From Ptychodera flava (Eukaryota): a stretch of DNA of 64,000 nucleotides. Of this stretch, positions 20,584 through 58,417 are shown piece by piece. Every line of letters begins with the position of its first letter. Within the stretch, counting starts at the first letter, position 1. Location of the stretch: positions 31,834,780 to 31,898,779 of the forward strand of contig NC_091947.1 in assembly GCF_041260155.1 (NCBI RefSeq), given 5' to 3'. Below the pieces are notes generated by a model that ran no database searches, had not been told where the DNA came from, and saw only the letters and a program-made list of their open reading frames with translations. The position numbers were made by a program, and so were the translations under genes.

Positions 20584-23500
20584 CTTTGACTCAATAACGC
20601 TGGCGCACTTAACGCAGAACGGTGCGGTATGTTGTTAGGTCGGAGTATCCGGCATGATACCCCTTTTAACTTACTTCACGATTTCGCTCATCCTCTATAC
20701 GTTATCCACATATTGTTGTGTCAGGAAGAGCAATAAACATTCAATATGTATTGCTTGACGACGTGTTTATCGAGACCTTAATGAATTTCAATTCTTTTTT
20801 CTCAGTGTGCATTGTAGTGTAGAATGTTTTACAGACGCAGCGAGATGCATATCCCGTTGGCGCATCCCTGTTTCCTTTTGACAAATAAACAAAATCGAAA
20901 CACTCGACATTTCAATTTTTATGGTGTTTCTTCACGGCTGAAAGAGACATCGACCACGTATCATATATGTTGGTCGATAGGAAAACTTTATTGTCAATCG
21001 TGGAAACAAAAATGACAAAAAACTACATGAAGGCACAAGGGCTTCATTAACTGACGGGTCAAAAGAGTACTTTAGTTTCTTGTTACACTTTAATTTTGTG
21101 ACATCTAGATCGACATCAATGGTTCATGATGATACTTCCAATCAATAGCATTATTTTGAAGTCAAACCGTTGCACAGTATTTTCACATCCTTCAGCGCAC
21201 CGTCATTTTTTTCAAGTGCCTTTTCTCCCCAGCCCCCTTCGGACCTGTTTTGTGACCGCAGCCTCATGTGAATGAATCTGTTGTCTTCAGCGTACACCTT
21301 ATAATAACGATACTTGAGATTCGTTCAGATCCGTTTTGCATTCGATATGGTCACAACGAAACATCTCATTTTATACGAAGAAAATGTCTAACAAGATTAT
21401 GTATGGGCGAGATCTGTATCGATCGAAGTTTGCATACTGAAGAAAAGCACAGAGAGCGTCCTCAACGGATGGCCTCAATAAGTCATGATTGGACTGTATT
21501 GCCAGACAGCGCTGGCTTTGAGTTTTCAACGAAGAATGACATTTCATCAATGACAACCAGGACAGTGCCTCCGTGACCATCACCGCGCGATATAACCTTT
21601 TGAGACAGTATAGGTCATAACTCATGGCAACCATTGTGAAGTAATTACAAGTTTCTTTACAGACTCGCATGGGAAAGAGCATATCTTCACGACCATATAG
21701 AGTAGCTTTCATCATCTTAACGACGAGGTATGACCTTTGTATGACGTGACTGACTTCAGTAAATTACTTGAAGGTGGTGAGAGGAAAAGCATTGGTGTTT
21801 AATATAAGGCTTTGCTCTTGTTAAGGTCATATGTATGACGATGGCATTAATTTTGTCACTTTTCAGCATGCTAGACGCAACTGGTATATCAAGTTACTTC
21901 ATGAATTTGTCTAACATTGTTGTGAAACCCTATTTTGGAGTTAAGTACATTCGCGATTAAAAAGTATATACATGTCATCATGTGAAGTAGGTATAGTATT
22001 ACACAAGATGGAAGTTTCGTATTTTAATTTCTTAATACCCATGACTCAGGTAGTTCTGCGCATTTTATGAGTCACAGACTTAAACTCGTTTAGTTGAAAA
22101 CAAGAATTCCAATTCAGAAAATAGTTTTAAGGTGTTCTCTATTTCGGTGAAATAATGAAGGGGCAAAGGGCTTCTTTGATATTGGAGCACTTTTTTGATG
22201 AAAGCTTGATGTACATGTCATTCTCATTGAAATCACCTACTCCTGAACCAAGATAACCTCCCTCAATATGTCTTAATCAGTGACACCGTATTCACCATCA
22301 ATCTCTCCACTGCTTGTATAGCTCTTCAGTGAATAGCAAAGACAACGTGTTCGGCATGTTCGCCTGGCCGAAGCCCGGCAGCCACATAGCCACTCGGTTA
22401 TGCTAGCCTACAATAGTACAGTAATATCATATACTGTGATTCTTTATTGAATAGACAAGTCGTATAGACATCGTACATATTAAATATGATTATTATCCCA
22501 GAAATGCGCCAAGCACCTGTGCTCTCTCTAATGCCATCTGAATAGCAAAGACATCCATTGGTTTCAATTTCGTCACCTTTTCGCATTTCAGTATGTAAAA
22601 GTTTCGCGGTATTTTTCTATTTCTCAGAATTTCAACTCAAGGGAGGTATGTTAATATGGCATCAAATCAATTCCAGCAATCGTTATCAGTCAAGTCAAGT
22701 AAATCACCAGGTCCAAGAAACAATACAAAATACACACTGACAAAATCAATAGTGCAATCTCGAACCACTAGTGGTGGTACCAGGTGTCTGGAATGGGTAA
22801 GCGTACCCATCAAGTCACAAGTAATTGTCAGGTAATCAGATAGTTGCCAAATTACTGTTGTGAGTCAAAGCCAGGAATACCGTCTCTCATCATCTGGGTA
22901 ACAGATTTGTCATATTTGAACATCTCCATATCTACCATAAAACTTCTGAAATGATCTAGCCAACCTACTTCGTGAAAATCTGTATCACTAGGTTTAAGAC
23001 GAAAAAGTTGTGTCTTACTTGAAAGTCTTCATATGAATTACAAGCTCTACAGTATCTCAAGAGTTGTGAAATGTATACACCATAAGCTTGACCGGACGTC
23101 CGATGAAATATAACTGGTTAAGTAGGGAAAGTTGTTGATTTCAAAATTAAAATCGTCCCTTTTGTCATACTTAAGCCTATTTTGTCGATTTTTTAAAAAA
23201 AAAGATCAAGATATGACGCTGAGCCCACACTTTCTGTTGTTTCTTTTATTTCTAATTCATCTTGATAGATAATTATGATCTTTCTCTTTGCTCGGAAAGT
23301 AAGTTCTTTCACCACTCCACAGCATTAGAGGATAAAACTTCGAGTTTTGTTACGAATACGAAATGGTACGACAGTAAAAGATCATAATGGACAAAGAGTT
23401 GAAAATACAGTCAGACCATATATGGCATAGACATACTAGTACACCTCAATCGTCGGAGGGGACTCATACCGACAGCAATGTATGCTTGAATGAGTACAGG

Positions 23501-25869
23501 GGACATGACCAGGAATAACACGAATACTAAAACCAAACAATGAACAGTTCTCCTTTGTTCTTATACAGCTGTATGTCTACGTCTAACATCCATGTCACTA
23601 GGGACTTTTGTGAGGCTGTTTTATGAAATTTAAAGGTGTGGTTGCATTAAAATGCTCTCCCTTTAAAATGGTGTGTGTAGGATTTTATTTGTGTGGATCA
23701 TAAAGGCTTACAAATTTACGTGAGACTGTGAGAAAACTTTTCATTACGCCTACACAGGTATGATACCGTGCCTGAACTGCAAGTCACTTTATTTTGGGAG
23801 CCATTCACACTGGAAGCCGTCAAATTATCAGCTTCAAGCGTATACATTGGTGTGCTTGGCTTCCAGCTTTGACTCAAGAACGCTGGCACTCTTAACGCAG
23901 AACGGCGCGGTATGTTGTTAGATCGGAGTATCCGGGATAATACCCCTTTTACCTTACTTCACGATTTCGCTCATCCTTTACACGCTATACACACATTGTC
24001 GTGTCAGTAAGAGCAATAAACCTTCAATATGTATTGCTTGACGACGTGTTTATCGAGACCTTTATGAATTTCAATTCTGTTTTCTCAGTATACATTGGAG
24101 TATATAATGATTTACAGACCCTGCGAGATGTATATTCCGTTGGCACATCCCTGTTTCCTTACCACGACTAGGGCTACTAAAACACAATCTAAACACTTGA
24201 CATTTCATTAACATTCACATGTATGAAAGGTCAATTTTACAATTTATACGGCGTTTCTACACGGCTTAAAGAGACATCGATCACATTTCATATAAGTTGG
24301 TCGCCATAAACACATTCTTATCAATCGTGAAACAAAAATGACAAAAACTACAGCATAATTTATAGCCGGCCACTTCATCCCCTCAAGTATTTCGTGTGAC
24401 TGATATGACATCAATATCGTTGAAGCACAACGCTATACTTTTGATTACCCCTTTCAAGCATACCGATGGAATGGTACCTAAGTCAACCAATACCTCACCA
24501 CTGAACTGAATTGCCATGTAAAGTACTAGTACTTGTTGCCGTCATCCTATTCTATCTAAATCTCGTGTACTAAATTCTTCCACACAGAATTGGTCTTTGG
24601 GAAAACGCTTCGTTGTCATTGCCGTGGAAATATACATGGGGTTTGCGTAGCCAGCTAATTCTTAACCATCAATCTGCACTGTGTTTTATCAAGATTTTAC
24701 AAAACTTACCAACATCATTTGCCATGTTTCAGGTAACATATAAAATAACGATTTAAAAGCAAGCGAAAAGTCCAATCTTGCCCAATTTAATATATGAGGA
24801 AAGATGCAAGCAGTGTTTTCCGTCTTTTTGTGTTACAATAGTGAGACTTACAACTAAAAGAAATATCCCAGTTGTATCGACACAAGTTCAAGCAGCGCCC
24901 TCAGACACAATCCCCCCACCGATCGCCCTTTCAGCAACCCTTAAACTTTGACTGTCCATATCAAATGAGGTCGATGTAATTTGGCATATCAGGAAGGTCA
25001 GATAGATACACAGAAGGTTTTGCGTTCGGTGACTTCTCTCGGTTGTGTCTGACAAAGGAAGCCCATGCAGAATTCTTTCCAGAAATGAATATGGCCGCAC
25101 CTGGAAAATATAAACGATTTAAATCGCACTGAACTTCAAATATGATACAAAATAAGACAAAAAGGATATTTCACACATGGTAAAATACTAAGCAGAACCA
25201 TGACAAGCAGACAAAGAACCATCCTGACGGGTATTTGGCAAATTCGTTCAATAGACTTTGGTGTAACAATGCAAGAAAGTGAAAATATCTTGAGACTTTT
25301 AAGAGAGAGTTGGTATACAAGACAAATTGTATTGATAAATGGATTCTTACATGTTGTCATCATGCTCAATGTCATGATAAGCTGAACAAAATAATTCTTT
25401 CGTTAAAAGCCGCTGCTAAAAATGCTGATTTAGCAGTGTCTTGGTAATTTGAACAGCTAATGACTGGTGTCTTTTGAAAGATCTTAAGACACTGTTGGAG
25501 GAACATTTAAGAATATGATATGAAGAAATGGTAAGAATTCAATCTAATTAAACTCCCGCTGCCTCTTTGAAAGATGTACTATTTCATAAAGTGCTCAGCG
25601 TGCTGGGTAAAATTGTTCAGATATATATTCATACTATGTTTCCCAGGATGTCAGGAATTCCGTCATCGACCTACATTAGTTTACAAACGAAAGTTATAAT
25701 CAACTATGTCTTCAACACGATATGGCATAAATAGACATTGATGACACCGTATATCGTACTGCATCACTGAACAGTCAAGAAACGTAAGATAGACCCCCAC
25801 CTTTGGGCTTATATCAGGATTACAAAATCCCTTAGAGATATTCCCTTCTTTTACACTGGAGCCCACTAA

Positions 25870-26022
25870 TTACTTACCTTCACATATCTCTTGTTCCACT
25901 AGTGACAGAAAGTAGTCGTCACTGAAGACAGATGGCTTAGGGGATAGCTTATTTGCCATTGCGATGACGTCAACTGAGGAATAAACTTTTGGTATCCTTG
26001 GTGACAGATACTTGACTATTCC
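25870..26022 (-). CDS. POFUT-like gene copy I, terminal coding exon reading GIVKYLSPRIPKVYSSVDVIAMANKLSPKPSVFSDDYFLSLVEQEICEGK followed by a stop
   Basis: The acceptor is tctgtctcag|GGAATAGTC at 26022 and the stop TAA is at 25870-25872. Copy II differs by an in-frame 3-bp indel, so the reading frame is conserved. Confidence 0.55.
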   Translation of the reverse strand, partial: GIVKYLSPRIPKVYSSVDVIAMANKLSPKPSVFSDDYFLSLVEQEICEGK

Positions 26023-26149
26023 CTGAGACAGAATCAAGCAATGATACAACACATGAAATGACAACAACAACACAATCACTGAGTAAACACATTAAAAGCT
26101 TGTCATGCAGAAGAACTTGCACCTAATTTTACGCTACGAAAAATAAAAA

Positions 26150-26163
26150 AAATCAAAATTCGA

Positions 26164-26222
<59 letters not shown>

Positions 26223-26340
26223 GGTGGTGGTGATGATGATGATGATGATGATAATGATGTTCATCATCATGAACATCATCATCATCATCATCATCATGAA
26301 CATCATCATCATCATCATCATCATTAGTATCGACCAATCA
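26150..26340. repeat. (CAT/ATG)n microsatellite with a (GTG)n segment, intronic
   Basis: It is a long imperfect trinucleotide array. It produces the spurious poly-His, poly-Asp and poly-Met ORFs in the track. The paralog at 62095-62160 is much shorter. Confidence 0.95.
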
Positions 26341-26679
26341 GCCCAAAACATTCAAGGATGTGATTTCAGATTTCAGATTGACAATAGAACCGCTAATGTT
26401 GCTAAACTACTTTCTTTGTTTTACCTTAAATTGCTTTGATGGTTCTAGGGACTGACGGATAGTTTTTACGAACTCGCCTCGGTGACGACTGACAACAGTT
26501 TTTGTCATTTACATGTATATTATATTCACCACACTATTATGTCAATTCCCTGTTTGGACCAAGTGCCTTCATTTTATGAAAAACACACACATGTAATCTA
26601 AATATTGCATTTGTACGAATAACACAAAATAATTTCCATGTAAACAACACATTTACTTCCCCGTCACAGTAATTCTTAC

Positions 26680-26821
26680 CCGCTTGATGCTTGGAGGTTG
26701 TGAAACGTATATGCATTGTAGGTCGTACGCCTTCGGAAGCGTGCTTGCACTTTTTAAAAGAAATTCTTCTTTTTTCTGACAAGCAGACTTACTGGAAATT
26801 ACAGCAGATTTATCTGTGCAG
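26680..26821 (-). CDS. POFUT-like gene copy I, internal exon encoding ...CTDKSAVISSKSACQKKEEFLLKSASTLPKAYDLQCIYVSQPPSIKR
   Basis: The acceptor is ctctacaacaacag| and the donor is AAGCGG|gtaaga at 26680. YDLQCIYVSQPPS resembles the LDAQSVYVATDSE block of O-fucosyltransferases. Copy II carries a 21-bp in-frame insertion in this exon. Confidence 0.5.
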
Positions 26822-27026
26822 CTGTTGTTGTAGAGAAGATCAAAATACCCTTTGATGAGTTGGTTTATCATCGCTAAATATGCTAGCATATAAAATTTAC
26901 TTTTTTCTTTTTTTTCAATAAATCTGTCGTAATATTCTTATACCTTCATATTCACTTTCTAACGATTGACGTCAACCTTACGTCATTCAATTGATCGACA
27001 CTTGTGTTTCTGTCTGTCTGTCTGTC

Positions 27027-27059
<33 letters not shown>

Positions 27060-27701
27060 ATGGACGGCTGAAATTTACAATAAAATTCATAAATTGGCCC
27101 GGAATATGAAGGAATTTGAAACTTTCAGTGCACTATTTCAAACATCTGATGCGGAAGTGCAAGTACTTGATTTTTTTTTAACTTCGGTAATTCTCTGTAC
27201 ACGCGCAGCAGTTATAGAATTAATTACAGACTTGGCTAAATTTTGAAGTTAAGGTAGAATGTGCCTCGGGACTCGGACAGATATTCGAATATCAATTTTT
27301 TATACTAAATTATTCTTTCCTGATCTACATCTTGCGGGGGCTCATTGTAAAGCTCTTGGGAGTCAGAAAAATTTAACCGTCTTAGCTTTGCAAGAACCGA
27401 AATTTTTATTTTTCCTCATAGAGTTAATACAGGGATGGCAGCCATTTTGAATTTCAAATATCGGTAAGTGTTAGGCAATTTGTTTCTCTGGTACCAAACT
27501 TTGTACAGACACCGTTGATTTTTATTCATGAATTGGTTAGAGAATGGTTGAAAGTTTCATCAATCCGGAAAGTTTGAGCAAAATACTTCCTAAGTGTGAA
27601 ACATAACGGCTTCATCAAAGGACTGATGGTGGAAATCGATTCTACAGTACTTCAAATAGGTGAACGACATTAAAAAGATCAAGAGATTTAAAATGACTCA
27701 C

Positions 27702-28230
27702 ATTTCGTCTAGCTTACTTCTCCAATGTACAGCAACAATAGGCCGATTCCCACACATATTTCGGAGAATAGTCCTAGCCACTAGTCTGATTGAGGGCGCC
27801 CTGACAAAATGAACTTCAACAATTTCGTCCAATTCTTCCCCTTTTCAATATCATGTAGTTGAAGTCTAGGGGTTGGTACATTCCAAAACACTCCTGACGC
27901 TGGCTCAGCAATATTTTTCTGACTGTATCCACTTGGCTTTTTGATACAGATTCTGTATCGGGTGCATTGACACTGAAAATGTCTAATATCTGTTGGCGCT
28001 CTTTTGCGTATGACGATTCATGACTGTCCATGTTTGGGACTGTCGGTTCAAAATGCGGAGCACGAACGACAATTTCCAGGTTGTAGTTGCATCTCAGCTG
28101 GAAATCCTCAATGGTGGCGACTGGCAGTATGTTTTGCAAACTCTCCACACTGTATGTCTCGTTGAACGGCACGACACTGGCAGCCGTACCCTCAGAGTCA
28201 TCGACGAACGGGACGAGGACAATAGTTCTG
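27702..28230 (-). pseudogene. POFUT-like gene copy I, large exon containing the NRTIVLVPF and HWRSKLDE (HxRxxD-type) motifs, with two 1-bp deletions relative to copy II
   Basis: The translation reads ...LNRTIVLVPFVDDSEGTAASVVPFNETYSVESLQ...FEPTVPNMDSHESSYAKERQQILDIF...QPLDFNYM, is then frameshifted, and restores in another frame as ...RPIVAVHWRSKLDE before the donor AAAT|GTGAGT at 27702. The deletions lie in A and G homopolymers near 27830-27850. The upstream exon boundary is not resolved. Confidence 0.45.
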
Positions 28231-28706: not shown

Positions 28707-30431
28707 TGTTTCAGATGAGTTTCACTTCATCAGCTATCTTGTTGTACTTCCAGCAACTTTCGACGTATCACTTTCTTTGTAAATATGCAGAGTGTCTATA
28801 ATTGGCAGTCATGCCCACAGGCGTCTGTCACATAAGGAAGGTGACTCAAAAGTTGGCGATACTTGTTCACTCAATACAAATGCGAAAGAGAAAGGGCGAC
28901 CTAACAATCAATATACACAGTGTCAGTCATTTTTGCATTGGTGTGGGAATATATTCTCATACGGTAAAAACACTCCTGCACAATACCAAGAGAGTGTATA
29001 GAACAACCCTATTGATAGCATCGACAACAAATTACACGGATTTGCATCTTTGCTTTCAGGCAGACTATTATCATGGAAACGTGTCTAAAACATCGCAACC
29101 CCTGAGAAATTTGATGGTCACAATATTCGACATATCTTCCTATTAAAGGTCAATCAATGAATCGTTGTTTGAGTAAGTTTTGGAGCCACGAAGAACAAGG
29201 TAGAACTGAGAAACAATCACTTACTCGTTGTGAGGAAAAATCACTGCTGAATTGAGGGATTCTGTCAATGCAATCATTCATGGGTGATTGTGTTGTGTTT
29301 CTGGTGTGTCTTACAGTCTGCAATTACTCAATGATTTGGTGTTTTTACATGTAGACTCTGAAAGTTATGGACGTGTTCCGTTTCCTGTAAATAACTTCAG
29401 GATTAGAGCAGAAATCCCGCTATTATTCCCAAAATTCAGCAGAGCTATAAAAAATGTAATGTGAATAAGAGTGTATTGTCAAAAGACATGAATCAGTGAT
29501 ATGTGAAAACATGCCTGGATATTTTATTGCTCTTGAATACAATTGTAGAATTAAAAATTGTAGAATTAAAATAACAAGTTACAGCGCAGGAAACTTTTCA
29601 ACAATTACAATGTACATAAAACTGAAAATGTGCCATAGAGGGCACTCTTGCTTTCACCGCCACATACAAGTGATGTCGTGTCATTTTGAGATGCCAGGCA
29701 AAATGATATATTGTGCAAATAACAACATATTTAACCAAGTGTTGCGACACTGTGAGCGTTGTTTCGAATTTTTGTTGCTAGCAAGTTAATCCATATGCAC
29801 ATCTTTTACAAGTTTGGTGAGAGAAAACAAAAATCAAATTCAAGTATATGTTAGAATACAATGATGGTGACAGATTATCTGAAGCCCTTGGAGCAATATT
29901 TGCCACCAAGAGTCCATGGTTGAAGACTACAACAGATGAAAAATATTTCATTTTAAATGAGTAATACTGAAACTTGCGATGACATTAGCGTTATTTTCAT
30001 TCTAGAAAACGAGTATATTTTTTTATTTTCTCCGTAAAGTATTAGTGGTGAAATGGAAATTATTAGCCTTGTAAGCACAATGGATTGAGCATGATGTGCC
30101 ATGTTGTGTTGACAAATGAGTTGGGAATGTGTCTGGACTAAACTTCAGTCATCAAAAATAAAATTTGAAATTGCACACATACAGGGTAAGGCTGTGTTGA
30201 GAAATTTAAGACATCTCATATTATTTAGCGGTTAAAACAAAATATTTCTATAAAAGTAAAACAAAAATAATGAAAAAGACACAAATAGTTACAGCTCAAG
30301 CTTATGTAAGAAGCTTTTGATATGTGCAAGATATGTTGATTATCCTAAGTTTGAATGGTAATACTACAATATGACATTGGAGACTAACTGAATAATGTGG
30401 TAACAACTTGATCCCATCGGTCTGCCGTCAA

Positions 30432-30494
30432 TTACTTATTTTTAGCAATTGTGGCACGCAGCTTTTCTTCACTAGCACCACTGAAGCGTTCCAA
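30432..30494 (-). CDS. TXN: Thioredoxin, last coding exon: LERFSGASEEKLRATIAKNK followed by a stop
   Basis: The acceptor is ttatttgcag|TTGGAACGC and the stop TAA is at 30432-30434. This matches the thioredoxin C-terminus ...GEFSGANKEKLEATI. Confidence 0.85.
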   Translation of the reverse strand: MERFSGASEEKLRATIAKNK

Positions 30495-31280
30495 CTGCAA
30501 ATAAAGATAGGCCAATAAGTTTAGAGATTTCTTGTAAAAGTGTAATACCATTTGTGTGGGCTTGATAGTAATGTTCTAGTTGCAGAACAGAGCAACTAAC
30601 ACAATATGAAGTAAGAGAGATTTATCAGACTGTTGTTCAAAGGTAGTATGCGCCTCGAAAGTGAAAGACTTCAACTTTGCTCAAGCATTCCTCAAGGAAT
30701 AGTTCAACCATTCTCTTTCAAAATCACAAAGAGAAATTAGGGGTCATTGTACAAATTTTGGTACAAGAGAAACAAATTACTCAAGATTTATGGATGTTTA
30801 TAATTCAAAATGGCCGCCATCCCTGTGTTCACTCTATGGAGAAGGATAAAATTTCGATTTTTCGAAAAAACTAAAATGGTGAAAAGTTTTCTTACATAAC
30901 TAGTGGTATATAAGAAAAGAATGTAAAAGTTTGACTGAATACCCGTCCCTGAGGCGCATTCTACCTTAAATTGGTGGGTATATTTGTAATTTGCTGGCCT
31001 AGTGATTAACCATAACTTCAAGCACTGTCTAGTGAAAGAGCTGAATGTTTTGGAATAGAAGGTGTTATGGTTTAGCTACATAGATACACCTGAGATGAAG
31101 AAGGGGATAACTTGTTATATGTGAAAGATGGCGAACAGTGGGAGATGGTATGTTCAGGGATGAAAGATATCTGGAGTGAGAGAGAACAGATAGGAGTAGA
31201 GTGACTGAAACTATACATGAAGCTGGTTAAAATGGTGGAACAGTGTCGCCAAAAACAACAAACTTAATTCACATCCTTAC

Positions 31281-31346
31281 CTCTTTTCCATTTTTGAAGA
31301 ACACAAATGTCGGCATTGCAGAAATGTTGTATGTTTCGGCAGTTTC
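31281..31346 (-). CDS. TXN: Thioredoxin coding exon: ETAETYNISAMPTFVFFKNGKE
   Basis: The acceptor is aattgtag|GAAACT and the donor is AAAGAG|gtaagg. This is the conserved CMPTFxFFKxGxK block of thioredoxins. Confidence 0.85.
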
Positions 31347-31616
31347 CTACAATTTGGAAATCAAGAAGAAAATGATTTAGGTTTAATATGGCTGTATGTG
31401 AAAGCAATCTTCAAGATTAATTTGAAATGTGAAGGGCAGGCAAGAACGAAATTTATTCGCAATCCCTAGTGTTTTAAGATGTTTGTGCCTTTCTATTAAA
31501 AACATGTCATTTGTTAGTTAAATGCAAACAATGACTAAGATAATAAATCATTTTTAAACAATCCCACCATACATGAAATCTAATGGCTGTGATCTTATAA
31601 GCGATAACATTCTTAC

Positions 31617-31676
31617 CGAATTGTCGTCAACATCCACCTTCAAAAATACAACATCTGTTATTTCATCGGAAAGTGC
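31617..31676 (-). CDS. TXN: Thioredoxin coding exon: ALSDEITDVVFLKVDVDDNS
   Basis: The acceptor is tttatttcag|GCACTT and the donor is AATTCG|gtaaga. It matches [20 protein letters not shown]. Confidence 0.85.
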
Positions 31677-32287
31677 CTGAAATAAATAAGAATATCACTC
31701 TGTAAAATCTGTGAACTCTTTCTGATAAGTATGTGTAATATTGAATATTTAATTTATACAAGCACAGCCATGTGCAAGACACACAAACAAGTATATGTGT
31801 AAATGTACATCAATTTGTTCCTATGTGGCCGTGTACACACATACATATGTATATGAGATGATGTACTTGAAAGCAATTTCCTGCAGAGCTATTGCGGTGC
31901 TCACTAAAATGGACAGCTGTGATGTGGTATTTTTCAGCAGTCACCATTCAGTTTAGCTAATACAACCCAGAAAGCATGTACATATTTCTCAAATATTTTA
32001 ATCCCATTGGTTATTGTCCCTCTTTGGTTTTCATTGGATCACTTGGCTTAAACACGTACTTGAGGAATAAGGAATTATGATAGAATATCCCTGTCGGATA
32101 CAAGTGTCAACTAAAACTTTCATTTGATAATTATATTCTTGTAGATTTGTATTTAGAAACACATTCACAAATAAAACAATCCTTTTGATACTTATTTTGC
32201 TAATGACATGACAACGACAACAAAGGAAAATGTCAACAGTGTAAGCTAGCCCTTGCGGTATTGCAGTCATCATGAAAGATACCTTAC

Positions 32288-32392
32288 CTCGAACTTGGGT
32301 CCGATGGATTGACAAGGCGGGCACCATGCTGCGGTGAAATCAACAGTAACCAGTTTCGAACCAGCATTTTTCAATTCAGCATCAAAGGCATC
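32288..32392 (-). CDS. TXN: Thioredoxin coding exon [35 protein letters not shown], carrying the active site as WCPPC
   Basis: The acceptor is cattcccacag|GATGCC and the donor is TTCGAG|gtaagg. It matches ...[32 protein letters not shown]. The short 5' exon of about 8 aa (MVKxIxSK-like) was not found and may lie upstream of the transposon at 32620-37670. Confidence 0.85.
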
Positions 32393-32619
32393 CTGTGGGA
32401 ATGACAGAATGTACATTTTTCGTCAGGAAAACTTTGGATTAGTGGAGAATTAGTGAACACCGGGGAATATCGCCCTCTTCGTTGACACCGGACATTCAAA
32501 CCATGGAGGTACTACTACCGCTATGTTCAAACCACAGGTTCCTGAAGTTAGTGTAGTGTAGTGTAGTGTACATAGAGAGAACTACACTGGCAACTCCAGG
32601 AACCTGTGGTTCAAACTAA

Positions 32620-35600
32620 GGGACTGGACGTAAATTAGCAGGGGGGGCCGGGGGGATTTCGCAAGAGAGTGGAGAAAACAATCATGACCCTCCCCCAAAA
32701 TTTAGTCCAAAAATTTATGACCCTCCCCAAAGCAAGGCTGAAAAATCTGTGACCCTCCCCCACTTTCAAAAAAAAGAATATTACAAATTGATCGAATCTT
32801 CGACGTTTAGAAAGTGAGGTGGATATTTACAACACAGGGCAATATGGATGGACACCAGCAAAGGATGCCTGCAAATTTTTTACTTGCTTCTGCTTGTGAC
32901 AAGAACAAGTTTAGATTTGGGTGTCAGCCTTAACCCAAGAATACTTTCTATGACTCGGTGTCAGTCACATTTGATCAGCATGGGTAAAACTAATCTTGTA
33001 GACAAAAATCTGGATAATTCTATGCTACAGATTTTCCAGTACTTTTAATAAAAGGGAAACCCCTGATTTCTCTGCCTACACAATATGCATTCCAGTTGTT
33101 ATGATAATGGTTTAATATACTGTTTAACTCTTACACTGTTTAAACTTAGTAAACCAATCACCAGATAAATGAGTACTGGTATTCTTGTTTCCAGTGTGGT
33201 ATGGGTGGGTTGTTCTGGGAACACCATAGGACAAACTATATGATTAAATTAATTCATTGTTTGATTTTTTGCACAAGTTTGATGAAATGCTCGATTTTCC
33301 ATTTTGTCAGCACACTTGTAAATGTGATACAAGCCACAAAAAAACCAGTTTTAAGACTTCACTGGACACAAAATATGACACCACTGCTCAAGTGTCATCA
33401 GGCTAGGCTGACAAACTGAATCGATAACATATCATGCTAAAATACAGCAGCTAATACTGAAAAATTCTGAAAATAATATTCAGTTCTGTCCTCTTTTACT
33501 GCATATAATTTGTTTAAAATTCCTCGACAGGTCTTTTGCAGTCCCTTTAACAAACTTGTGGTACAGCGCACGTTTGTTTCAGCAAACTCAGACAATTGCC
33601 AGGTCAGAGTTGTGACAGCAAGTCTGAACACACATTTAGAGTACTGTAAAGTGTTGGGTCTGATATCCTTGTTCAATCATACATCTAAATTAATTTTACC
33701 ATTTATAAATTTTCTATAGTAAAAATGAAACCATTTTTCCTGGTAAAATTCTGAAATCTTATGAATTTATATAACTCTGACCTGCAAAGTAAACAACAAC
33801 AAAACCAACAACACCTTGTCCATACACCATTGTTTCAAATTACAGTGACTGACAGGCAAAAATAACAAAACAGCAAACATGGAATTTAGCCATTTTCATT
33901 GGCCATTAAAGGGACAAAGCCACTCATTTTTGACAAAAGTTTGGTCATTTTAATTTCTGTTGAATACATATGCTTTTCTGCTGCTCACTGAAATGGTTCA
34001 ATCGGAATCTCTGGTTGTCACAGCTCAACTCATGTGCATGCATATATATAACATGTGATCACTTAATGATTTATGTACCAAAAATTGTAACATTGTAAAT
34101 TTCACATGTTAATATGTCTTATAAAAAGGTGACAATTGAATTGCAATTGCAATAACCAGAGAGTGAGCATATTTCAGTGAGAATGATCTGTCAAAAGAAA
34201 TTTAAATGGCAAAATAATGTCAAAAATGAGCAACTTTGTCCCTTTAACTTGGATATCTAGTACAGATTCTTTTAATTCAAGTGTCAAGCTAGCAGCATGA
34301 CCATTGCACTGTTGAAGTATTAAAATGCTTGCAATGAATATTTTTATAATTGGTGCATTGACAAGATAGTACTGTAAAATGTTGACAAAAATAGCTTTGT
34401 CCAAAGTATCATAATATTAGCCATTCCTGAACAGGATATAAGATTAAATCACCATGTGAACTCACAAATATTTCAAATAGGAAAGTGCAGTCTTCTGCTG
34501 AGTCCTGAATCATGTACCGGTATGTTGTACACCATGGACGTAGACACTAAGCATAGCATAATGTGAAAAAACTTAAAGTCTTGGTACTAGATGACTGCTA
34601 AACAAGATCGGTAGTCTGCTTGTTTCAAAGCTATTTAAAAACTTTCTTCTGGACCTATTTCACATCATACTCGACCCCCTGGACTTGACCTGCAAACTTG
34701 GTTCGTAAATTGTATTCAGCTGGAAAATGACAATAATCAGAGATTCGTCATATTTGTCAAATTTCACTCATGACAATTATTTCTGTCCGTTTTTCCTGAC
34801 TGTCAAAATTGATTGAGGTCTTAGTATTGCAAGTACTTAATTTAATGATGATTTTCATAAATATGTTTCACTTACAACTGGACTGAATTGTCACTACTTC
34901 CAAGTGTGACTGTGAACATCATTCTAAAAATATTCAAAAAACTTCCACACAGTCAACTTTCTACAAGTCTGTTCACGAGTGTCGTGCTGTACCATCAAGT
35001 TCTCAGGACGCACACTATACATTTATAAAGGTCTGTATGTTTAAATGATTGGTTTATGAAAAATATATTAAGGATCAGAAGGATGTTGATATTACAATTT
35101 ACAAGTCTCGGTGTTGTTTTCCCAAGCAGGAGCGTATCAGTATCACCATGGAGCTACCACACTCTTTTGGTAGTTACATGGTATCACTCCTTGGTTTATG
35201 TAGCTGCAGTTGCAAAGCTGAAGGTTTTGCCTTTTTCAAGTTTTATAGCTTTTAGTTTTTAGTTTTAGTGTTAAGGTTTGATCAAGTTTACGTCCTACCT
35301 AAACACCAGTCCAAAAATTTAGGTACAACGGCAATATTGCCCTACGCTAGGAGGATATGTGTACCACTGTCGAAACGCGAAGGCTACTGAACCGGAAGAG
35401 CTCTCTCTACTGAGTACATAAGCCTTCGCGTAGCGACCTGGTTGCACCTGTGTGTGACGAGTATGCCGTTGTTGGAGGCAATCAAAGCAGCCAATAGCTG
35501 AAAACTCTTACTATTCTCGTAGGGCTTAGACTGCTACACCAAGTCAATGGCATATATCATGTAAAGTAGGCAGTAAATATGGGCCCTTTCACATTGGTTT

Positions 35601-37670
35601 TGAACTGCACATGTGGAATTTTATGATTCAACAGACTGTCCAATAATTCCAATAATGAATGCCAAAATTGGCTCATAATGGACTAGAGCACACTTACACT
35701 CCATTAAGAGTGATTGTAATAAATAATGTTCTTCACATGTTTTCTTTTATATTGATGCACATGTGCCTGCCATTTTTTTTTAGTAATTATAATTTAACAT
35801 TTATAAAAATATCAGTGAAATTCATAATTTTGGAATGAATCACATTGACAATTGAGGGAATATTGGAAACACAATGTGACACTGATCTCCACAACAATGT
35901 TATATGGTCATGTACAATGTATTGAGCAGTTCAATCTCTACATGGGGAGGAAATATGGGAAAGTATGTTTAAAATGTGTTCCTGGTACAGATATAGAACT
36001 ACATGTGTGTTTGCATGACCCCATTATTCACAGATTTTTTATGTAATCCAGATAGACCTGTGTAGTCAGAGAACTGGAAAATAACTGTACATGTGCTCAT
36101 TGCACTCATAGCAAATCCAGTTTTACAAAATGTACTATGTCTTCCAGTAGACAATGAGATGTTTTGGTCATGTTGCCCTGTTTTGGGGGAGAGGTTGCTT
36201 GTTCAAGCAATAATTTAAACGAATAATTCAAAGTACGGTCATAGATTGAATGCTATAGTATGAAATTATGGTGTTTTAACATTGACAATCTTTGCAAATT
36301 TGCAGAGCGCAAAGTTTTGGTGCCTTGTTTCTTTGCATTTTAAACATATCACAGAAAACAGCCTAGATAATAGGGGATAGACTGATCCAGATTTGACACA
36401 GAAGAGGCCAACACTATTTCAATCAAGTCTTCATATTCTGAAATGACATTAGGTAGGGTATATTGCTTTTTAGTACATGTTGCATCAAGATTCTCAGAAA
36501 AGGGATTTAACCATATGTAATCAAGATCAATCTTGGTTTTTCAGAGTAGATATTATCTTTTGAATGGATGTAGCATATTTTTTTAAGTTTGTGTTGTGAA
36601 ATTATGATATAAGATACTTGTATAGACCTAAAGATTTTATTTGTCTAATTTATGCACAGATTACACCAAAAAAGACAATAATTTGTAAGACTTTAAATTT
36701 TTTTCAATACTTTTGTTTATTCACTGTATATATTACCCACATTAAATTTCAACAGATGTCATATATCCTGCCATCACAACACAAATGAACACACTCCATT
36801 CCAAAGATAGTACCCGTGTGGTAAAGCCACAAGTAGCCATACCAATCAGATGACTTTAAGTATACTAAAATCACTTTTCTGGAATCAAAATTATTAATTA
36901 TTACACCAAAGCTTGCGCTTAATTTCAAACAATAGTACATGTATCTCTAAAAACTAAAAATTCATGTACCTAAAAAGTGACTGATGCAGGGAAGTGGCTT
37001 ATGCAAGAGAGGTAACTTTTGTTGATCAACAAAAAGTGGAATGAGAAATAATATTGTCAAATAGTTAGGTTCAAGATTGACTACATCAGTAGAACAATGT
37101 AAGATATTGTGGTAATATCCTGCAGTGTTTTTGTTAAGTATGGTACCTAGGTAAATGTTACTGGGTTCTCCAGTCATTTTACCAGGGTTACCCTTGGTAT
37201 ATCAGTGCAGTCATATTAGCGGACAACATAAATTTTACCAGGGTTCCCAATGTTCCCCAACCTTAGCAAAAACACTGTCCAGTGTTTATTAACAAAACAC
37301 ACTACATGTACACTGTGCAGCCAGAATACCACGACTCATTCCCTTTTATTGTGGGTTAGCTGAGGAACAAAAGATTGGATTTGCTATAAGCTTAATGGCG
37401 ATAAGAATAGCAACAAGAGAGACAATCCGGTTAAATAATGGTGGGGAAGAGATTCACAGAGTGTTGTGAATGAGCATTTAATAGAAAGTAAGAGGCAGAG
37501 TGCGAGTGATGTCATGTGAGCATATTGTCTTTACAAACAATTTGTTTTCTACTTTAGTGCACCGAAAACATGCCAAAAAAATTGTGACCCTCCCCCAAAC
37601 AGAGGTTCAAAAATTTGTGACCCTCCCTCTAATCCCCCGGCCCTCCCCCCGCTAATTTACGTCCCGTACC
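32620..37670. mobile_element. 5.05-kb PIF/Harbinger-like element with no ORF, G-run TIRs and a TAA target-site duplication, lying immediately 5' of the thioredoxin exon block
   Basis: The left end is GGGACTGGACGTAAATTAGCAGGGGGGGCCGGGGGGATT. The right end reverse-complemented is GGTACGGGACGTAAATTAGCGGGGGGAGGGCCGGGGGATT. TAA lies at 32617-32619 and 37671-37673. Subterminal repeats of the form GTGACCCTCCCCC occur at both ends. The interior is AT-rich with no ORF above about 80 aa. Confidence 0.7.
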
Positions 37671-40600
37671 TAAGATCTTCAGCATAGTCAGTGAAGTGGA
37701 ACTTGAGACTCTCTTCACTGGCTGTATGTCTGCAGTACCTGTCTCGTTTCAATTTATTCTGCTATAAAAGGAGTAGAGAACAGCCTGTCCTTTCAAGAAT
37801 GATTGCAAGATGGACATTTGCCGACCACTCTTCGCGTTTTCAACTAAATAAAAACACAGCTACGGACCTGACGAATACTTTTCCACGGTATATTTTTCAT
37901 AATTTAATCGTCATATTAGTGTTGGCCTCAAAAGTCCCGGAGTCATTGCGCTAAAAATAAACGACTGTCACACACTGGTATCATACATATGCGAAATGAC
38001 AATAAGGCCAAAAATAGGATTGTTTCTGGTCATCGAGCGCGTCATTTCAAAACCTGCGCCTTATGTCTTTCTTTGGTTACATACTCATCAGTACAGCTAT
38101 CCTTGATATCCCCGCTGCACATCAAAAATGCTAAAAAGAAAACGGAAGTATTATGCAGCCAGTGATAAAAGACAATAAATGTTGCATCAACTGGCATTGC
38201 TAGGTAAAAAAAAAAGAAAAAAAAAAAAAAACCGTTTTGCTGAATGTCAAGGACCAGAACCAATTTATTTTTGCCTAATATTGAGTACAATAATATTCGA
38301 TAATATATGGATATCATTTACTGCCACGTCCTTCGGGCGATTTGTGCGGTCATAATGCCATAAATCGACGCCATCTTCACACGTTTGCCGAGACGATCAC
38401 GCCCAGGCAGAGTGCGCTACGTGCTAAACGGCTCGCCGACCGGACAGGACCGGACGCGTGGCAGATTATGCCATCGTGTGTACTCGATGATAACATTAAT
38501 TATATCATTGAAAAGTGATATTATACGAAATTTTATAGATGTATCGTCCTGTCTGACAGTCATTATAAAGCTAAAAAGCAATCTGCAAGTGTGTTGACCA
38601 AAGCAACTGATGTAAAACAAAAGAATGTTTTTTATGTTGTTGTTTTTTTTTTATCCCATGGAAACCGTATTCCGATGTTGAATATGGATAAGGTAGTCAA
38701 ACATTTACCGCCGCGCGTTCGTTTGCAATTTCGCAACAATGAATGGCGTTGTGCACAAATTGTGCATAAACTGCGATTTTACATTTGTGATGCTCTGCAG
38801 GGTTGCCGTCGCGTTCAATGGCTCTAGCTCTAGATGAACGTCAAGCGTTTTAACGTAGGAATATCAGCTGCTCCAAGGACATGTAGTCATTGTTGAGAAG
38901 TCTTTTCGCCACGAATATATTATAATGGCTAGGATTTAGTTTCACTTTCAAACGCTATATTAGAAATTTTTCACCGAAGTGGCAATTTGACTGATTGCGA
39001 AATCTGTACCTGTGGAGCTCATAAACCCCATTAAGGCTAACAGCAATTACGGTTACAGGAAAATACGAGAGCGTTGAATAAAGCCACCTGCATGACCTGG
39101 CTTGGATCATAGACAGTGAAGCGCATCTACCGTCTATGCTTCGATTAGTTGTGAGGTATATCTGTAAATTTAGAACGATGACAACGAAATTCAACCATTA
39201 TCTCATTTCTGCCGCCAATGCTATGACCTACCTACCACCGAAGATAAATTCAGTCACAGTCTATAACAGTCGCTTATGGTTCCCATACACGGGGAAGGCC
39301 GCCTTTCAGCGGCCTTTGAAGCCCTGCTTAAGATCTTGTGTTCACGGCGATGTACGGACTGTGGTGGGAGGCCGTACAACAACCGGAACATACAGCATCG
39401 CACTAAGGGCTAGGGCCCACAAGCGACATTGAGTTTAGTTACATCACAGCTGGCCTGACGGACCACAGGTATGGAAACGTGCTGCATGCAAAACATCTGT
39501 AACAAATGCGGCCCCTCTGAAGTTGGAGGCTGGCAACCCAAGAAATGTAGAAAACCAACATATTACGATATGTATGATACATTACCTTGGTTTTAACAAC
39601 GATAACCGGCATGATTGACAAGATTGAATAGCACTCCTTGTCTTTAAGAATAGTTTCTGATAACAACTATGGGTTAACAAGACTTATATAGTCTGACAAA
39701 ACGAAAGAGGTAGGCTGCTGACGCCGCTAATTGGATGACAGAGGAAAACCCTAGTCATGCCATGGTACTACCTAGGCACATGGAAAATATTTGCAAAGTT
39801 ACCAACCGGTATCCCAGGGCGGCGGCCTTAAGGGCGAACCTTTCAACTTATAGGGGAGGGCCCGTAGAATCTTGGAACAGAACATTACTTCTGCTATGAT
39901 AAAATTTGCTAGCTCTGTCTTCGGGTACAAATGTATTATTTCGAACCTTTTCCCCGATTTCCCCGCCATTTTACTAATTTAGTATATCATATCTTTCCAA
40001 GGCTGATCGAGGCCTTTCCGGGAACATTAAAAAATCTTAAATATTATAAGTTGTTTCTTATGGTAATTGACAAGCAGTTTATCTTTCTAAATTTTTCGAT
40101 CCTCTATTACAAATATTCACAACCTTATTTCCCTACGCCGTGAAATTATGTCGTCAGAAAAGGCAAAATACGATATTTGAACACCAACGCACTGATATGA
40201 AGTTTTTCTGGTATGTTCAATATCTGAAACTATTCGTCCCAGAGTCAAAGCAAATGTGCACATTTCGAGCGATATGGGGTGAACTATTTGATATATTTGG
40301 GGGTCTGGAAGATTGAATGGGAACTACTTTTCCTCCCTGCTTCACTTGGAACTTTTTTCAACTGTGCCAATTCCATTTCTTATCTGGCAACTTTACTTTT
40401 CGCCTTTTCTCCCAGAGGAATATTTTTTTCCGCGCGCATGCACGCACAAAATGCCAGAATAATTGTTCTTTTTGTTGGGATTTTTTTCTTTACAAAACTT
40501 TAAACTTTTATTGACAAGCTATGGTAAGCTTGACCTATAATTGTAACAACAATGGACAACTGATATTCAGTGCAGGCTATGTTGACAAGCTGAATTGAGT

Positions 40601-52200: not shown

Positions 52201-53636
52201 TAAATCTTTCTAGAAGGAGGTTTTGTCTCCTTTATTATCAATGATGTCCAAACAGTGGTTTTGAAGTGCTACATGGACTTCTCTACTATCATATCTAGTG
52301 TTTCGCACAAATGTACAATGTACATAAATTTTTTATGAGGGCCGAGTTGTGTCTATTAATAGTTTAGGGATGTACATATCCGAAGAGGATTTGACCTCAG
52401 TGCCCTTGATTAGAATACAATGACCTCAGTGCGCTTGAATAGAATACAATGACATGATTATGAATAGAGAGAACGTATTTGATATTTGACCAACTTCCGT
52501 GCCCATTTCAAGCAACACATTTCGAGAACTCCTTTAAGCATATTCAGGTCTTAAACTTGTCAAGACCATACCATGTCTCCTGACTCCTCTGGGAGGCATT
52601 ATGGGAAACATGAAAAGAGCAATGAAGGTTAACGGTAGAAAACAAAGTCGTGCACAAGCGTCCCGAACAGACCCAACGTGAACACATTCCCTCGTCATGA
52701 GTGGGGGACACACTTCATGAAATCTATGATATGCAGGTCGGTCTCTCCGTATACAGTAGTAGAACAACACGCCAACGCCATGACACATTTAGACTTCTTA
52801 TTGCAAATAAATCTACTTCCTTATTTTGTGAAGGTGTGTTTTTTCGTCGAATGACACGGCAGCCGTACAAGAAGTCATTTTTGTCATACAGCTCAGTGTA
52901 CGACTTAGGCCTATTTAGTCGAATTAAAAAAATAGATCAAGATATGACGCTTAGCCCACACTTTCTGTTGTTTCTTTTATTTCTAATTCATCTGGATAGA
53001 TTTGATGGAGGTAGTTATGATCATTCTCTTTGCTCGTAAAGTAAGTTCCTTCACCACTCTACAGCATTAGAGGGTAAAAGTTCGAGTTTCGTCACAAAAA
53101 CGAAATGGTACGGGATTAAAGGTCATGCACAATGGACAAAGAGTCGAAAATGCAGTCAGACCATATATAGCATAGACATACTAGTACACCTCAACCGTCG
53201 GAGGGGACACATACCGACAGCAATGTATGCGTGAATGAGTAGAGGGGACCAGCAATAACACGAATACACTTGTCCTTTGTTCTTTTACAGCTGTGCGTCT
53301 ATGTCTAACAACCATGTCGCTAGGGGTTTTTGGTGAGACTGTTTTAAGAAATTTAAAGGTGCGGAAGCATTAAAATGCTTTCCCTTTAAAAGAGTCTGCG
53401 TAGGATGTGATTTGTGTGGACCATAAAGTCTTACAAATTTATGTGAAACTGTGAGAAAACTCTTCATTACGCCTACACAGGTATGATACGGTAACTGAAC
53501 TGCAAGTCATCTTCATTTGGGAGCCATTCACACTGAAAGCCGTCAAACTAACTCCCCGTATACATTGGTCTGCTTGTTTCAGCTTTGACTCAAGAACGCT
53601 GACACACTTAACGCAGAACGGTGCGGTATGTTGTTA

Positions 53637-58000: not shown

Positions 58001-58165
58001 AATGAACAGTTCTCCTTTGTTCTTATACAGCTGTATGTCTACGTCTAACATCCATGTCACTAGGGACTTTTGTGAGGCTGTTTTATGAAATTTAAAGGTG
58101 TGGTTGCATTAAAATGCTCTCCCTTTAAAATGGTGTGTGTAGGACTTTATTTGTGTGGATCATAA

Positions 58166-58341
58166 GGGACTGGTCAGTTTCTTCGGCCTGGGGGGGGGGG
58201 GCGGTGGATTATTTTTTGCCGACGTCAAAAGTGGCTGACCCCCCTATTCCAAATTTTGAAAACAGGGTGACCCCCCTATTCCAAATTTCTAAAACAGGGT
58301 GACCCCCCCCGGGCGCGACAAAGGTAAAACAAAAGATGGAC

Positions 58342-58417
<76 letters not shown>

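What the first reader, a model, noticed from the sequence alone, without database searches (positions are those of the whole stretch)
30432..32392. A thioredoxin with a WCPPC active site and a 5-kb transposon at its 5' end
The four exons have clean GT-AG junctions and encode a protein collinear with classical ~105-aa thioredoxins: ...[23 protein letters not shown] / ALSDEITDVVFLKVDVDDNS / ETAETYNISAMPTFVFFKNGKE / LERFSGASEEKLRATIAKNK. The redox motif is CPPC rather than CGPC, a dithiol signature usually associated with nucleoredoxin and tryparedoxin-type proteins. The first coding exon (about 8 aa, MVKxIESK-like) is not present within about 250 bp upstream. Instead the 5.05-kb Harbinger-like element at 32620-37670 begins 228 bp upstream of the exon, so the promoter and first exon are either displaced by at least 5 kb or replaced.
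Basis: partly seen in the sequence, partly recalled or inferred. Interest (0 to 1): 0.55.

Follow-up and report, generated by a model that had tools for sequence, protein, structure and literature searches.

The report
Intact acorn-worm thioredoxin with CPPC site
This is an ordinary, intact five-exon cytosolic thioredoxin gene of the acorn worm Ptychodera flava, already in public databases, whose active site reads CPPC instead of CGPC and whose first intron holds a dead 5-kb transposon, so the "missing" first exon lies 7.2 kb upstream.

Summary
On the minus strand, exons at 32392-32288, 31676-31617, 31346-31281 and 30494-30432 have GT-AG borders and encode a classical thioredoxin with W-C-P-P-C (TGG TGC CCG CCT TGT, 32326-32312).

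The missing first exon, MPVIVVKTK, lies at 39612-39586. It has a GT donor, and TATA and CCAAT boxes sit 78 and 122 bp upstream. The five spliced exons translate exactly to the 106-aa database protein "thioredoxin-like [Ptychodera flava]".

The 5,051-bp element (32620-37670) has about 50-nt terminal inverted repeats and a TAA target duplication. It encodes no detectable transposase and lies wholly inside intron 1 (7,193 nt). The gene is therefore displaced, not broken.

The protein keeps every invariant thioredoxin residue and models as a canonical thioredoxin fold (pLDDT 95.4; TM 0.95-0.98 to human Trx1). It has evolved no faster than its CGPC paralog, which is 83% identical. The three paralogs of Glandiceps, another acorn-worm genus, are all CGPC, so CPPC arose recently in one duplicate.

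CPPC thioredoxins are already known and active: plant Trx h3/h4/h5, poplar h1 (PDB 1ti3) and filarial Trx1. The verdict is a new member of a known kind, of low interest.

The parts
39730..39734 (-). CCAAT box of the thioredoxin promoter
   Evidence: Regex on the minus strand; sequence read.
39684..39690 (-). TATA box (TATATAA), 78 bp upstream of the ATG
39586..39612 (-). Coding part of exon 1: ATG CCG GTT ATC GTT GTT AAA ACC AAG (MPVIVVKTK), followed by donor GTAATG
   Evidence: tblastn gives an exact 9/9 match to the N-terminus of P0001. Donor and phase were checked. The VKTK motif is shared with the Glandiceps orthologs.
32393..39585 (-). Intron 1, 7,193 nt, GT-AG, phase 0; about 2.1 kb without the element
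32620..37670 (.). 5,051-bp TIR element with no recognisable coding capacity (non-autonomous or decayed, Harbinger-like by its ends only). TIRs lie at about 32620-32670 and 37620-37670. Subterminal GTGACCCTCCCC repeats are present.
   Evidence: Inverted repeat I1 and direct repeat D1. The TIR core occurs only twice in the window. No Pfam transposase in six frames. No ORF of 80 aa or more. No other copy in the window.
32617..32619 (.). Left target-site duplication TAA
   Evidence: Junction sequences.
37671..37673 (.). Right target-site duplication TAA
   Evidence: Junction sequences.
32288..32392 (-). Exon 2 ([35 protein letters not shown]), with acceptor cccacag
32312..32326 (-). Active-site codons TGG TGC CCG CCT TGT = W32 C33 P34 P35 C36
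31617..31676 (-). Exon 3 (ALSDEITDVVFLKVDVDDNS)
31281..31346 (-). Exon 4 (ETAETYNISAMPTFVFFKNGKE), contains the cis-Pro76 loop
30432..30494 (-). Coding part of exon 5 (LERFSGASEEKLRATIAKNK plus stop TAA at 30432-30434)
30022..30027 (-). First AATAAA polyadenylation signal downstream of the stop codon (3' UTR of about 400 nt, inferred)
   Evidence: Regex.

Best explanation
The locus is the intact gene for a cytosolic, Trx1-type thioredoxin of the hemichordate Ptychodera flava. It has five exons on the minus strand (39612 to 30432) and encodes 106 aa.

Shown:
- The spliced exons reproduce the deposited protein exactly.
- All thioredoxin-defining residues are present: buried Asp27, Trp32, Cys33, Pro35, Cys36, Pro41, cis-Pro76 and Gly92.
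- The predicted fold is that of human Trx1.
- The only departure is Gly to Pro at the first X of C-X-X-C.

Inferred mechanism: the protein works like any thioredoxin. NADPH-dependent thioredoxin reductase reduces the Cys33-Cys36 disulfide. The Cys33 thiolate attacks a target disulfide, and Cys36 resolves the mixed disulfide. Going by characterised natural CPPC thioredoxins, the Pro34 change leaves reductase coupling and general disulfide-reductase activity intact. At most it narrows or shifts target specificity.

The gene is one of two recent lineage-specific paralogs. The other copy, 83% identical, keeps CGPC, and CPPC is the derived state.

A 5,051-bp coding-dead TIR element with a TAA duplication inserted into intron 1. 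It lengthened the intron from about 2.1 to 7.2 kb and separated the promoter and exon 1 from the rest of the gene. No exon or splice site was altered. The insertion is most likely neutral.
For: - Gene model: five GT-AG, phase-0 exons translate exactly to P0001, 'thioredoxin-like [Ptychodera flava]'.
- Promoter: TATA and CCAAT boxes lie upstream of exon 1.
- Exon 1 is needed: exon 2 has no in-frame Met, so exon 1 must supply the start codon.
- Family: PF00085 scores 98.4 bits against a cut-off of 23.5. The best solved relatives are thioredoxins, with the reconstructed ancestral LAFCA Trx at 9e-33 and human Trx1 at about 1e-28.
- Fold: AF2 pLDDT 95.4 with the canonical order of strands and helices. 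Foldseek gives TM 0.95-0.98 and rmsd 0.4-0.8 A to human, rat, shrimp and fly Trx.
- Invariant columns D27, W32, C33, P35, C36, P41, P76, T77, F78 and G92 are all retained.
- No decay: P0001 and P0002 are about equally distant from outgroups.
- CPPC is derived: P0002 and the three Glandiceps paralogs are all CGPC.
- CPPC thioredoxins work. Arabidopsis h3/h4/h5 reduce insulin (PMC9311986). Poplar h1 (PDB 1ti3) carries WCPPC. Filarial CPPC Trx1 is reduced by human TrxR1 with kcat/Km of 200 against 242 for hTrx1, and its P40G mutant behaves the same (PMC8914392).
- Element: TIRs, TSD and absence of a transposase.
Against: No transcript or protein evidence could be examined, and the deposited protein derives from the same assembly, so it does not confirm the CCG codon or the splicing independently. 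No activity data exist for this protein. The filarial CPPC thioredoxins belong to a different (16-kDa, nucleoredoxin-related) clade, so the transfer of their kinetics is by analogy. Amino-acid differences between the two paralogs cluster in residues 34-50 and 68-74, near the substrate-binding face. The last 32 residues are identical. That pattern could mean real functional divergence, or gene conversion at the 3' end, rather than simple redundancy.
Confidence: 0.88

Rival explanations
1. Neofunctionalised paralog: after the duplication, the Gly34Pro change and the substitutions clustered on the substrate-binding face gave this copy a distinct client set or activity. Precedents are the plant CPPC thioredoxins: h5 acts in denitrosation, and the Brassica self-incompatibility function requires WCPPC.
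For: Differences from the CGPC paralog concentrate in residues 34-50 (helix alpha2) and 68-74, next to the cis-Pro loop. The C-terminal 32 residues are identical. Gly to Pro needs two nucleotide changes. In plants the CPPC motif itself matters for specific functions (PMC3827552).
Against: In filarial Trx1, swapping CPPC to CGPC had no significant kinetic effect with its reductase. Only two changes are clearly derived in P0001 at conserved positions, V25T and G34P.
Confidence: 0.3
2. Decaying or silenced duplicate: the transposon insertion between the promoter and exon 2, together with loss of the near-invariant Gly, marks a copy on its way to becoming a pseudogene.
For: Gly34 is conserved in at least 90% of homologs. 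A 5-kb insertion sits in intron 1. A canonical CGPC paralog exists that could cover the function.
Against: The ORF is intact, and all eight splice sites are canonical and in phase 0. Every invariant residue is retained. There is no rate acceleration relative to the paralog. The fold is predicted with confidence. The TATA and CCAAT boxes are intact. Introns of 7 kb that carry transposons are commonplace in animal genes (general knowledge).
Confidence: 0.05
3. The CPPC reading is an assembly or base-calling artefact of a normal CGPC gene.
For: The only other record of the sequence, the deposited protein, comes from the same genome assembly, so there is no independent confirmation.
Against: Any Gly codon (GGN) to CCG needs at least two adjacent substitutions, and the reading frame is undisturbed. 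CPPC recurs naturally in Trx1-like domains: 14 of the 148 newly returned best representative proteins and 4 of 109 word-index hits carry it.
Confidence: 0.03
4. The protein is a nucleoredoxin- or tryparedoxin-type redoxin rather than a thioredoxin, as the WCPPC motif might suggest.
For: It carries the WCPPC motif. Pfam Thioredoxin_8 (PF13905) gives a marginal hit of 27.7 bits against a cut-off of 27.
Against: PF00085 scores 98.4 bits. All the best sequence and structure matches in the PDB are classical thioredoxins. The length is 106 aa with no tryparedoxin-type insertions. The closest paralog and orthologs are CGPC thioredoxins at 60-83% identity.
Confidence: 0.01

Closest known systems
Animal cytosolic thioredoxin 1 (human TXN/Trx1; shrimp, Drosophila and Fasciola thioredoxins)
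   Same: Length of about 105 aa. The model matches human Trx1 at TM 0.95-0.98 and 47-51% identity. The buried Asp, Trp-Cys-x-Pro-Cys motif, cis-Pro and Gly92 are conserved. From memory and not tested here, human TXN also has five exons, with exon sizes that appear to match the 35/20/22/20-codon pattern found here.
   Different: The first X of CXXC is Pro, not Gly. There are no extra cysteines: the human Cys62, Cys69 and Cys73 equivalents are absent, whereas the CGPC paralog P0002 has the Cys69 equivalent.
Plant h-type thioredoxins with a natural WCPPC site (Arabidopsis Trx h3/h4/h5, poplar Trx h1 PDB 1ti3, Brassica THL-1)
   Same: These are bona fide single-domain thioredoxins with WCPPC. They are active in insulin reduction. 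A solved structure carries the motif. They match P0001 at about 5e-25. They are also members of paralog families in which CGPC and CPPC copies coexist.
   Different: The CPPC motif arose independently: the nearest relatives of P0001 are CGPC animal thioredoxins. The plant proteins have N-terminal extensions and plant-specific partners.
Filarial nematode thioredoxins BmTrx1 and OvTrx1 (CPPC)
   Same: They are animal thioredoxins with CPPC and only the two active-site cysteines. They are efficiently reduced by thioredoxin reductases, including human TrxR1. A neighbouring paralog carries a different CXXC motif.
   Different: They belong to a 16-kDa class related to the nucleoredoxin clade, not to the Trx1 type.
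Nucleoredoxin and tryparedoxin (Pfam Thioredoxin_8)
   Same: The WCPPC motif.
   Different: They have a different subfamily scaffold, are larger and carry insertions. P0001 scores 98 bits on PF00085 against 28 bits on PF13905.
PIF/Harbinger DNA transposons and their non-autonomous derivatives
   Same: A 3-bp TAA target-site duplication and terminal inverted repeats.
   Different: No DDE_Tnp_4 transposase or Myb-like ORF was detectable. The subterminal repeats are in direct rather than inverted orientation at the two ends (D1). Copy number in the genome is unknown.

Membership tests
Classical thioredoxin (Pfam PF00085, Trx1 type) | Sequence match to the Thioredoxin profile above the curated cut-off | tested here: met
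   98.4 bits against a cut-off of 23.5, E=2.7e-28. PDB thioredoxins match down to 9e-33.
Classical thioredoxin (Pfam PF00085, Trx1 type) | Thioredoxin fold (beta-alpha-beta-alpha-beta-alpha-beta-beta-alpha) of about 105 residues | tested here: met
   AF2 pLDDT 95.4 and pTM 0.87, with the elements in canonical order. TM 0.95-0.98 to human Trx1.
Classical thioredoxin (Pfam PF00085, Trx1 type) | Trp-Cys-Gly-Pro-Cys redox motif | tested here: inconclusive
   W, both Cys and the second-position Pro are present, but Gly is replaced by Pro, giving WCPPC. [quoted passage not shown]
Classical thioredoxin (Pfam PF00085, Trx1 type) | Buried Asp (human D26), Pro40, cis-Pro75 and Gly91 equivalents | tested here: met
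   D27, P41, P76 and G92 fall in invariant or near-invariant alignment columns.
Classical thioredoxin (Pfam PF00085, Trx1 type) | Reduction by NADPH-thioredoxin reductase and protein-disulfide reductase activity | not testable with these tools
   This needs recombinant protein. The activity is inferred from active CPPC thioredoxins.
Nucleoredoxin / tryparedoxin (Pfam PF13905 Thioredoxin_8) | Best profile match and scaffold of the tryparedoxin/nucleoredoxin subfamily | tested here: not met
   PF13905 scores 27.7 bits against 98.4 for PF00085. All the top structural neighbours are Trx1 proteins.
Nucleoredoxin / tryparedoxin (Pfam PF13905 Thioredoxin_8) | WCPPC active site | tested here: met
   The motif alone does not define this family.
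PIF/Harbinger transposon | 3-bp TWA target-site duplication | tested here: met
   TAA at 32617-32619 and 37671-37673.
PIF/Harbinger transposon | Terminal inverted repeats | tested here: met
   The arms are about 50 nt long and 71% complementary, with an identical 14-nt core found only at the two ends.
PIF/Harbinger transposon | DDE_Tnp_4 transposase and a Myb-like DNA-binding protein gene | tested here: not met
   The six-frame Pfam scan gave no transposase or Myb hit at E<=0.05, and there is no ORF of 80 aa or more. The element is at best a non-autonomous or decayed relative.
PIF/Harbinger transposon | Multiple dispersed copies sharing the termini | not testable with these tools
   There is no second copy in the 64-kb window, and the host genome is not in the searchable collections.

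The most novel reading that the evidence does not exclude
After a recent duplication in the Ptychodera lineage, one thioredoxin copy acquired CPPC through a two-step codon change. It also acquired a cluster of substitutions on the substrate-binding face and evolved a distinct redox function. This would be an independent, animal parallel to the plant CGPC/CPPC h-type split. It would also be the first such case in a deuterostome Trx1-type gene.
Probability: 0.25. Interest if true: 0.35.

Novelty: new member of a known kind. Interest (0 to 1): 0.15.

Why it matters
It matters little beyond annotation. The result shows that the apparent loss of exon 1 comes from a transposon-inflated first intron, and that the gene is whole. 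The CPPC site adds a deuterostome example to the known natural Gly-to-Pro variants of thioredoxin. It also offers a convenient natural CGPC/CPPC paralog pair for asking how the first X residue of CXXC tunes target specificity. No open question hinges on it.

Tried and rejected
1. I looked for the paralog P0002 in the window by tblastn and did not find it.
2. I tried to fetch genomic loci for P0001 and P0002 by exact look-up, to obtain independent DNA and compute dN/dS. Neither is on record.
3. I traced other WCPPC Trx1-like proteins to organisms. They come from unnamed environmental eukaryote assemblies and transcriptomes, so whether any are animal could not be established.
4. The exhaustive representative search was dominated by multi-domain proteins. 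It was useful only for counting motifs.
5. The six-frame Pfam scan of the element found no transposase. The only hit was a sub-threshold 'HAB' match (E=0.021, 15.6 bits against a cut-off of 27), which I dismissed.
6. Rfam and tRNA scans of the whole window found nothing, so there is no intronic RNA gene.
7. I considered an alternative mini first exon in the 228-bp gap: CC ATG|GTTTGA, with the ATG at 32514-32512 and a good Kozak context. I rejected it because the donor is weak. The product would lack strand beta1. The distal exon also reproduces the deposited N-terminus and shares the VKTK motif with the Glandiceps orthologs.
8. I considered piggyBac-type (TTAA) and other TSD classes for the element. 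The junctions fit only a 3-bp TAA.
9. A literature search for Ptychodera thioredoxin found nothing relevant.

Full report
**Observation.** The finding lies on the minus strand. Reading 33000-30000 in reverse complement shows four exons exactly as described:

- 32392-32288: [35 protein letters not shown]
- 31676-31617: ALSDEITDVVFLKVDVDDNS
- 31346-31281: ETAETYNISAMPTFVFFKNGKE
- 30494-30432: LERFSGASEEKLRATIAKNK plus TAA

Each has an AG acceptor and a GT donor, and all junctions are in phase 0. The redox-site codons are TGG TGC CCG CCT TGT at 32326-32312. The 97-aa translation matches Pfam Thioredoxin (PF00085) at 98.4 bits, E=2.7e-28.

**Identity of the gene and the missing exon.** A protein search returned a 100% identical, 106-aa entry named 'thioredoxin-like [Ptychodera flava]' (P0001; NCBI and UniRef; on a 39-Mb contig). 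The window therefore comes from the acorn worm P. flava.

P0001 begins MPVIVVKTK and continues with DAFDAELK.... tblastn places those nine residues at 39612-39586 on the minus strand. The sequence there reads ATG CCG GTT ATC GTT GTT AAA ACC AAG | GTAATG. TATATAA ends at 39690 and CCAAT at 39734.

Splicing the five exons gives a 321-nt CDS whose translation equals P0001 residue for residue. A nine-residue match alone is weak (E=0.5 in the window), but other evidence supports it. The start codon, the immediate GT donor, the phase-0 fit and the upstream TATA and CCAAT boxes all agree. The VKTK motif is also shared with the orthologs of another acorn-worm genus (TVTEVKTK and TVPYVKTK). Exon 2 has no in-frame Met, so an upstream coding exon is required.

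Intron 1 is 7,193 nt (39585-32393). Introns 2-4 are 611, 270 and 786 nt.

**The transposon.** The repeat finder shows inverted arms at 32616-32670 and 37620-37674. The 14-nt core GGACGTAAATTAGC occurs exactly twice in the 64 kb, in opposite orientation. The junctions read ...CAAAC TAA|GGGACTGG... and ...CCCGTACC|TAA GATC.... This gives an element of 5,051 bp at 32620-37670, flanked by a 3-bp TAA duplication.

A TAA duplication plus TIRs is the signature of PIF/Harbinger elements (established knowledge). However, the element has no ORF of 80 aa or more. A six-frame Pfam scan finds no DDE_Tnp_4, Myb or any other transposase domain. It has no second copy in the window.

It is therefore a non-autonomous or decayed element that is Harbinger-like by its ends only. 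It lies entirely within intron 1, 228 bp upstream of exon 2 and 1.9 kb downstream of exon 1. It displaces the promoter and exon 1 but interrupts nothing.

**What the protein is.**

- Against solved structures, the best sequence matches are thioredoxins: the reconstructed animal-fungal ancestral Trx at 9e-33, shrimp Trx at 9e-30 and human Trx1 at about 1e-28.
- In an alignment with 25 relatives, P0001 keeps all invariant columns: L16, L23, D27, F28, A30, W32, C33, P35, C36, P41, D59, D61, P76, T77, F78, F80 and G92.
- In a 76-sequence alignment, the only near-invariant position at which P0001 is known to differ is G34.
- AlphaFold2 gives pLDDT 95.4 with the canonical order of strands and helices.
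- Foldseek superposes the model on human, rat, shrimp and fly thioredoxins at TM 0.95-0.98 and rmsd 0.4-0.8 A.
- The nucleoredoxin/tryparedoxin profile (PF13905) scores only 27.7 bits.

The protein is a classical Trx1-type thioredoxin, not a nucleoredoxin-like redoxin.

**Origin of CPPC.** P. flava has a second thioredoxin on the same contig (P0002, 105 aa). It is 83% identical over the full length and carries WCGPC. The three thioredoxins of Glandiceps talaboti are 60-66% identical and all WCGPC. The two P. flava genes are thus lineage-specific duplicates, and CPPC is the derived state.

GGN to CCG needs two substitutions, so a single base-calling error cannot explain it. The plausible Ala intermediate (WCAPC) exists in nature.

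P0001 is not accelerated: its identities to outgroups are within 3-7 points of those of P0002. Only V25T and G34P are clearly derived at conserved sites.

The differences between the paralogs cluster in residues 34-50 and 68-74, while the last 32 residues are identical. This could reflect specificity divergence or gene conversion, and I could not obtain the paralog's DNA to decide.

**How unusual is CPPC?** Among 109 word-index homologs, 4 carry WCPPC: this protein, two Selaginella h-type thioredoxins and one from an unnamed ENA assembly. Of the best 150 representatives from an exhaustive HMMER scan of 1.84 billion proteins, 148 were new to the session. Fourteen of those have WCPPC in a Trx1-like context such as VVDFTASWCPPCK.IAP. 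Those I could trace come from unnamed environmental eukaryote data.

- Arabidopsis Trx h3, h4 and h5 are CPPC and reduce insulin, and h5 also denitrosates (PMC9529593; PMC9311986).
- The Brassica self-incompatibility function depends on WCPPC (PMC3827552).
- In animals, filarial BmTrx1 and OvTrx1 are CPPC. Human TrxR1 reduces them almost as well as hTrx1 (kcat/Km 200 and 157 against 242 min-1 uM-1). The BmTrx P40G (CGPC) mutant is kinetically indistinguishable (PMC8914392). These proteins belong to a nucleoredoxin-related 16-kDa class (PMC3415087).

My searches found no paper describing a CPPC Trx1-type protein in a deuterostome. That is absence from an open-access library, not proof of absence.

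**Mechanism.**

- Shown: gene integrity, family, fold and conserved catalytic residues.
- Inferred from the family: thioredoxin reductase plus NADPH reduces the Cys33-Cys36 disulfide. The Cys33 thiolate attacks substrate disulfides, and Cys36 resolves the mixed disulfide, assisted by the buried Asp27.
- Inferred by analogy with plant and filarial CPPC proteins: Pro34 preserves this chemistry and may modulate partner choice.

The intronic element is most likely neutral.

**Rivals.**

- Neofunctionalised paralog: plausible but untested (about 0.3, and not exclusive of the main explanation).
- Decaying duplicate: argued against by the intact ORF, splice sites, invariant residues and unaccelerated rate (0.05).
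- Sequencing artefact: 0.03.
- Nucleoredoxin-type protein: rejected (0.01).

**Verdict.** Its 'displaced first exon' alternative is correct. The gene is an ordinary, already deposited thioredoxin with a known kind of natural active-site variant and a dead transposon in its first intron. It is a new member of a known kind, and interest is low.

Noticed in passing
window 320-1039 (-) and 50698-51243 (-); repeat 1-1809 ~ 50377-52203: Two copies, 98.5% identical over 1.8 kb, of an element that encodes a DDE_3 (Tc1/mariner-type) transposase ORF (Pfam E=1.7e-16). It is probably a recently active transposon.
   Followed up: partly
window 20635-28127 ~ 55016-64000, plus many 0.4-2 kb repeats at 17.5-24 kb and 44.5-53.6 kb: Large direct repeat blocks (88-94% identity) flank the thioredoxin gene. 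The second block runs to the window edge, at a point corresponding to about 1.9 kb before the thioredoxin 3' end. The CGPC paralog P0002 (same contig) may therefore be a tandem copy just beyond 64 kb. This is inference only.
   Followed up: partly
window 27816-28172 (-) and 63569-63985 (-): Duplicated ORFs of 118 and 138 aa (…PHFEPTVPNMDSHESSYAKERQQILDIFSVN…) with no Pfam match. They may be an exon of a duplicated neighbouring gene or part of a repeat.
   Followed up: partly
window 32525-32616: A 92-bp palindrome with 25-nt arms (88% complementary) around a CACTA microsatellite. It directly abuts the left TAA duplication of the 5-kb element and looks like a MITE (I5).
   Followed up: no
window 30676-30895 (thioredoxin intron 4); inverted copies at 27362-27582 and 63242-63460: A repeat of about 220 bp at 74% identity, probably a short interspersed or MITE-like element inside intron 4.
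   Followed up: no
window 41305-42214: Self-similar hits offset by about 180 and 360 bp at about 70% identity indicate a degenerate tandem array. It lies 1.7 kb upstream of the thioredoxin promoter and falls below the Tandem Repeats Finder threshold.
   Followed up: no
window 39719-39727: An antioxidant-response-element core, TGACGCCGC, lies between the CCAAT and TATA boxes of the thioredoxin promoter. The window has 24 such cores in 64 kb, so one in the core promoter has roughly a 5% chance. This is a lead only.
   Followed up: partly
window 33906-34247 and 36588-36785: Short inverted-repeat pairs inside the 5-kb element (38 nt at 84% complementarity and 34 nt at 74%) suggest nested MITE insertions (I2 and I3).
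   Followed up: no
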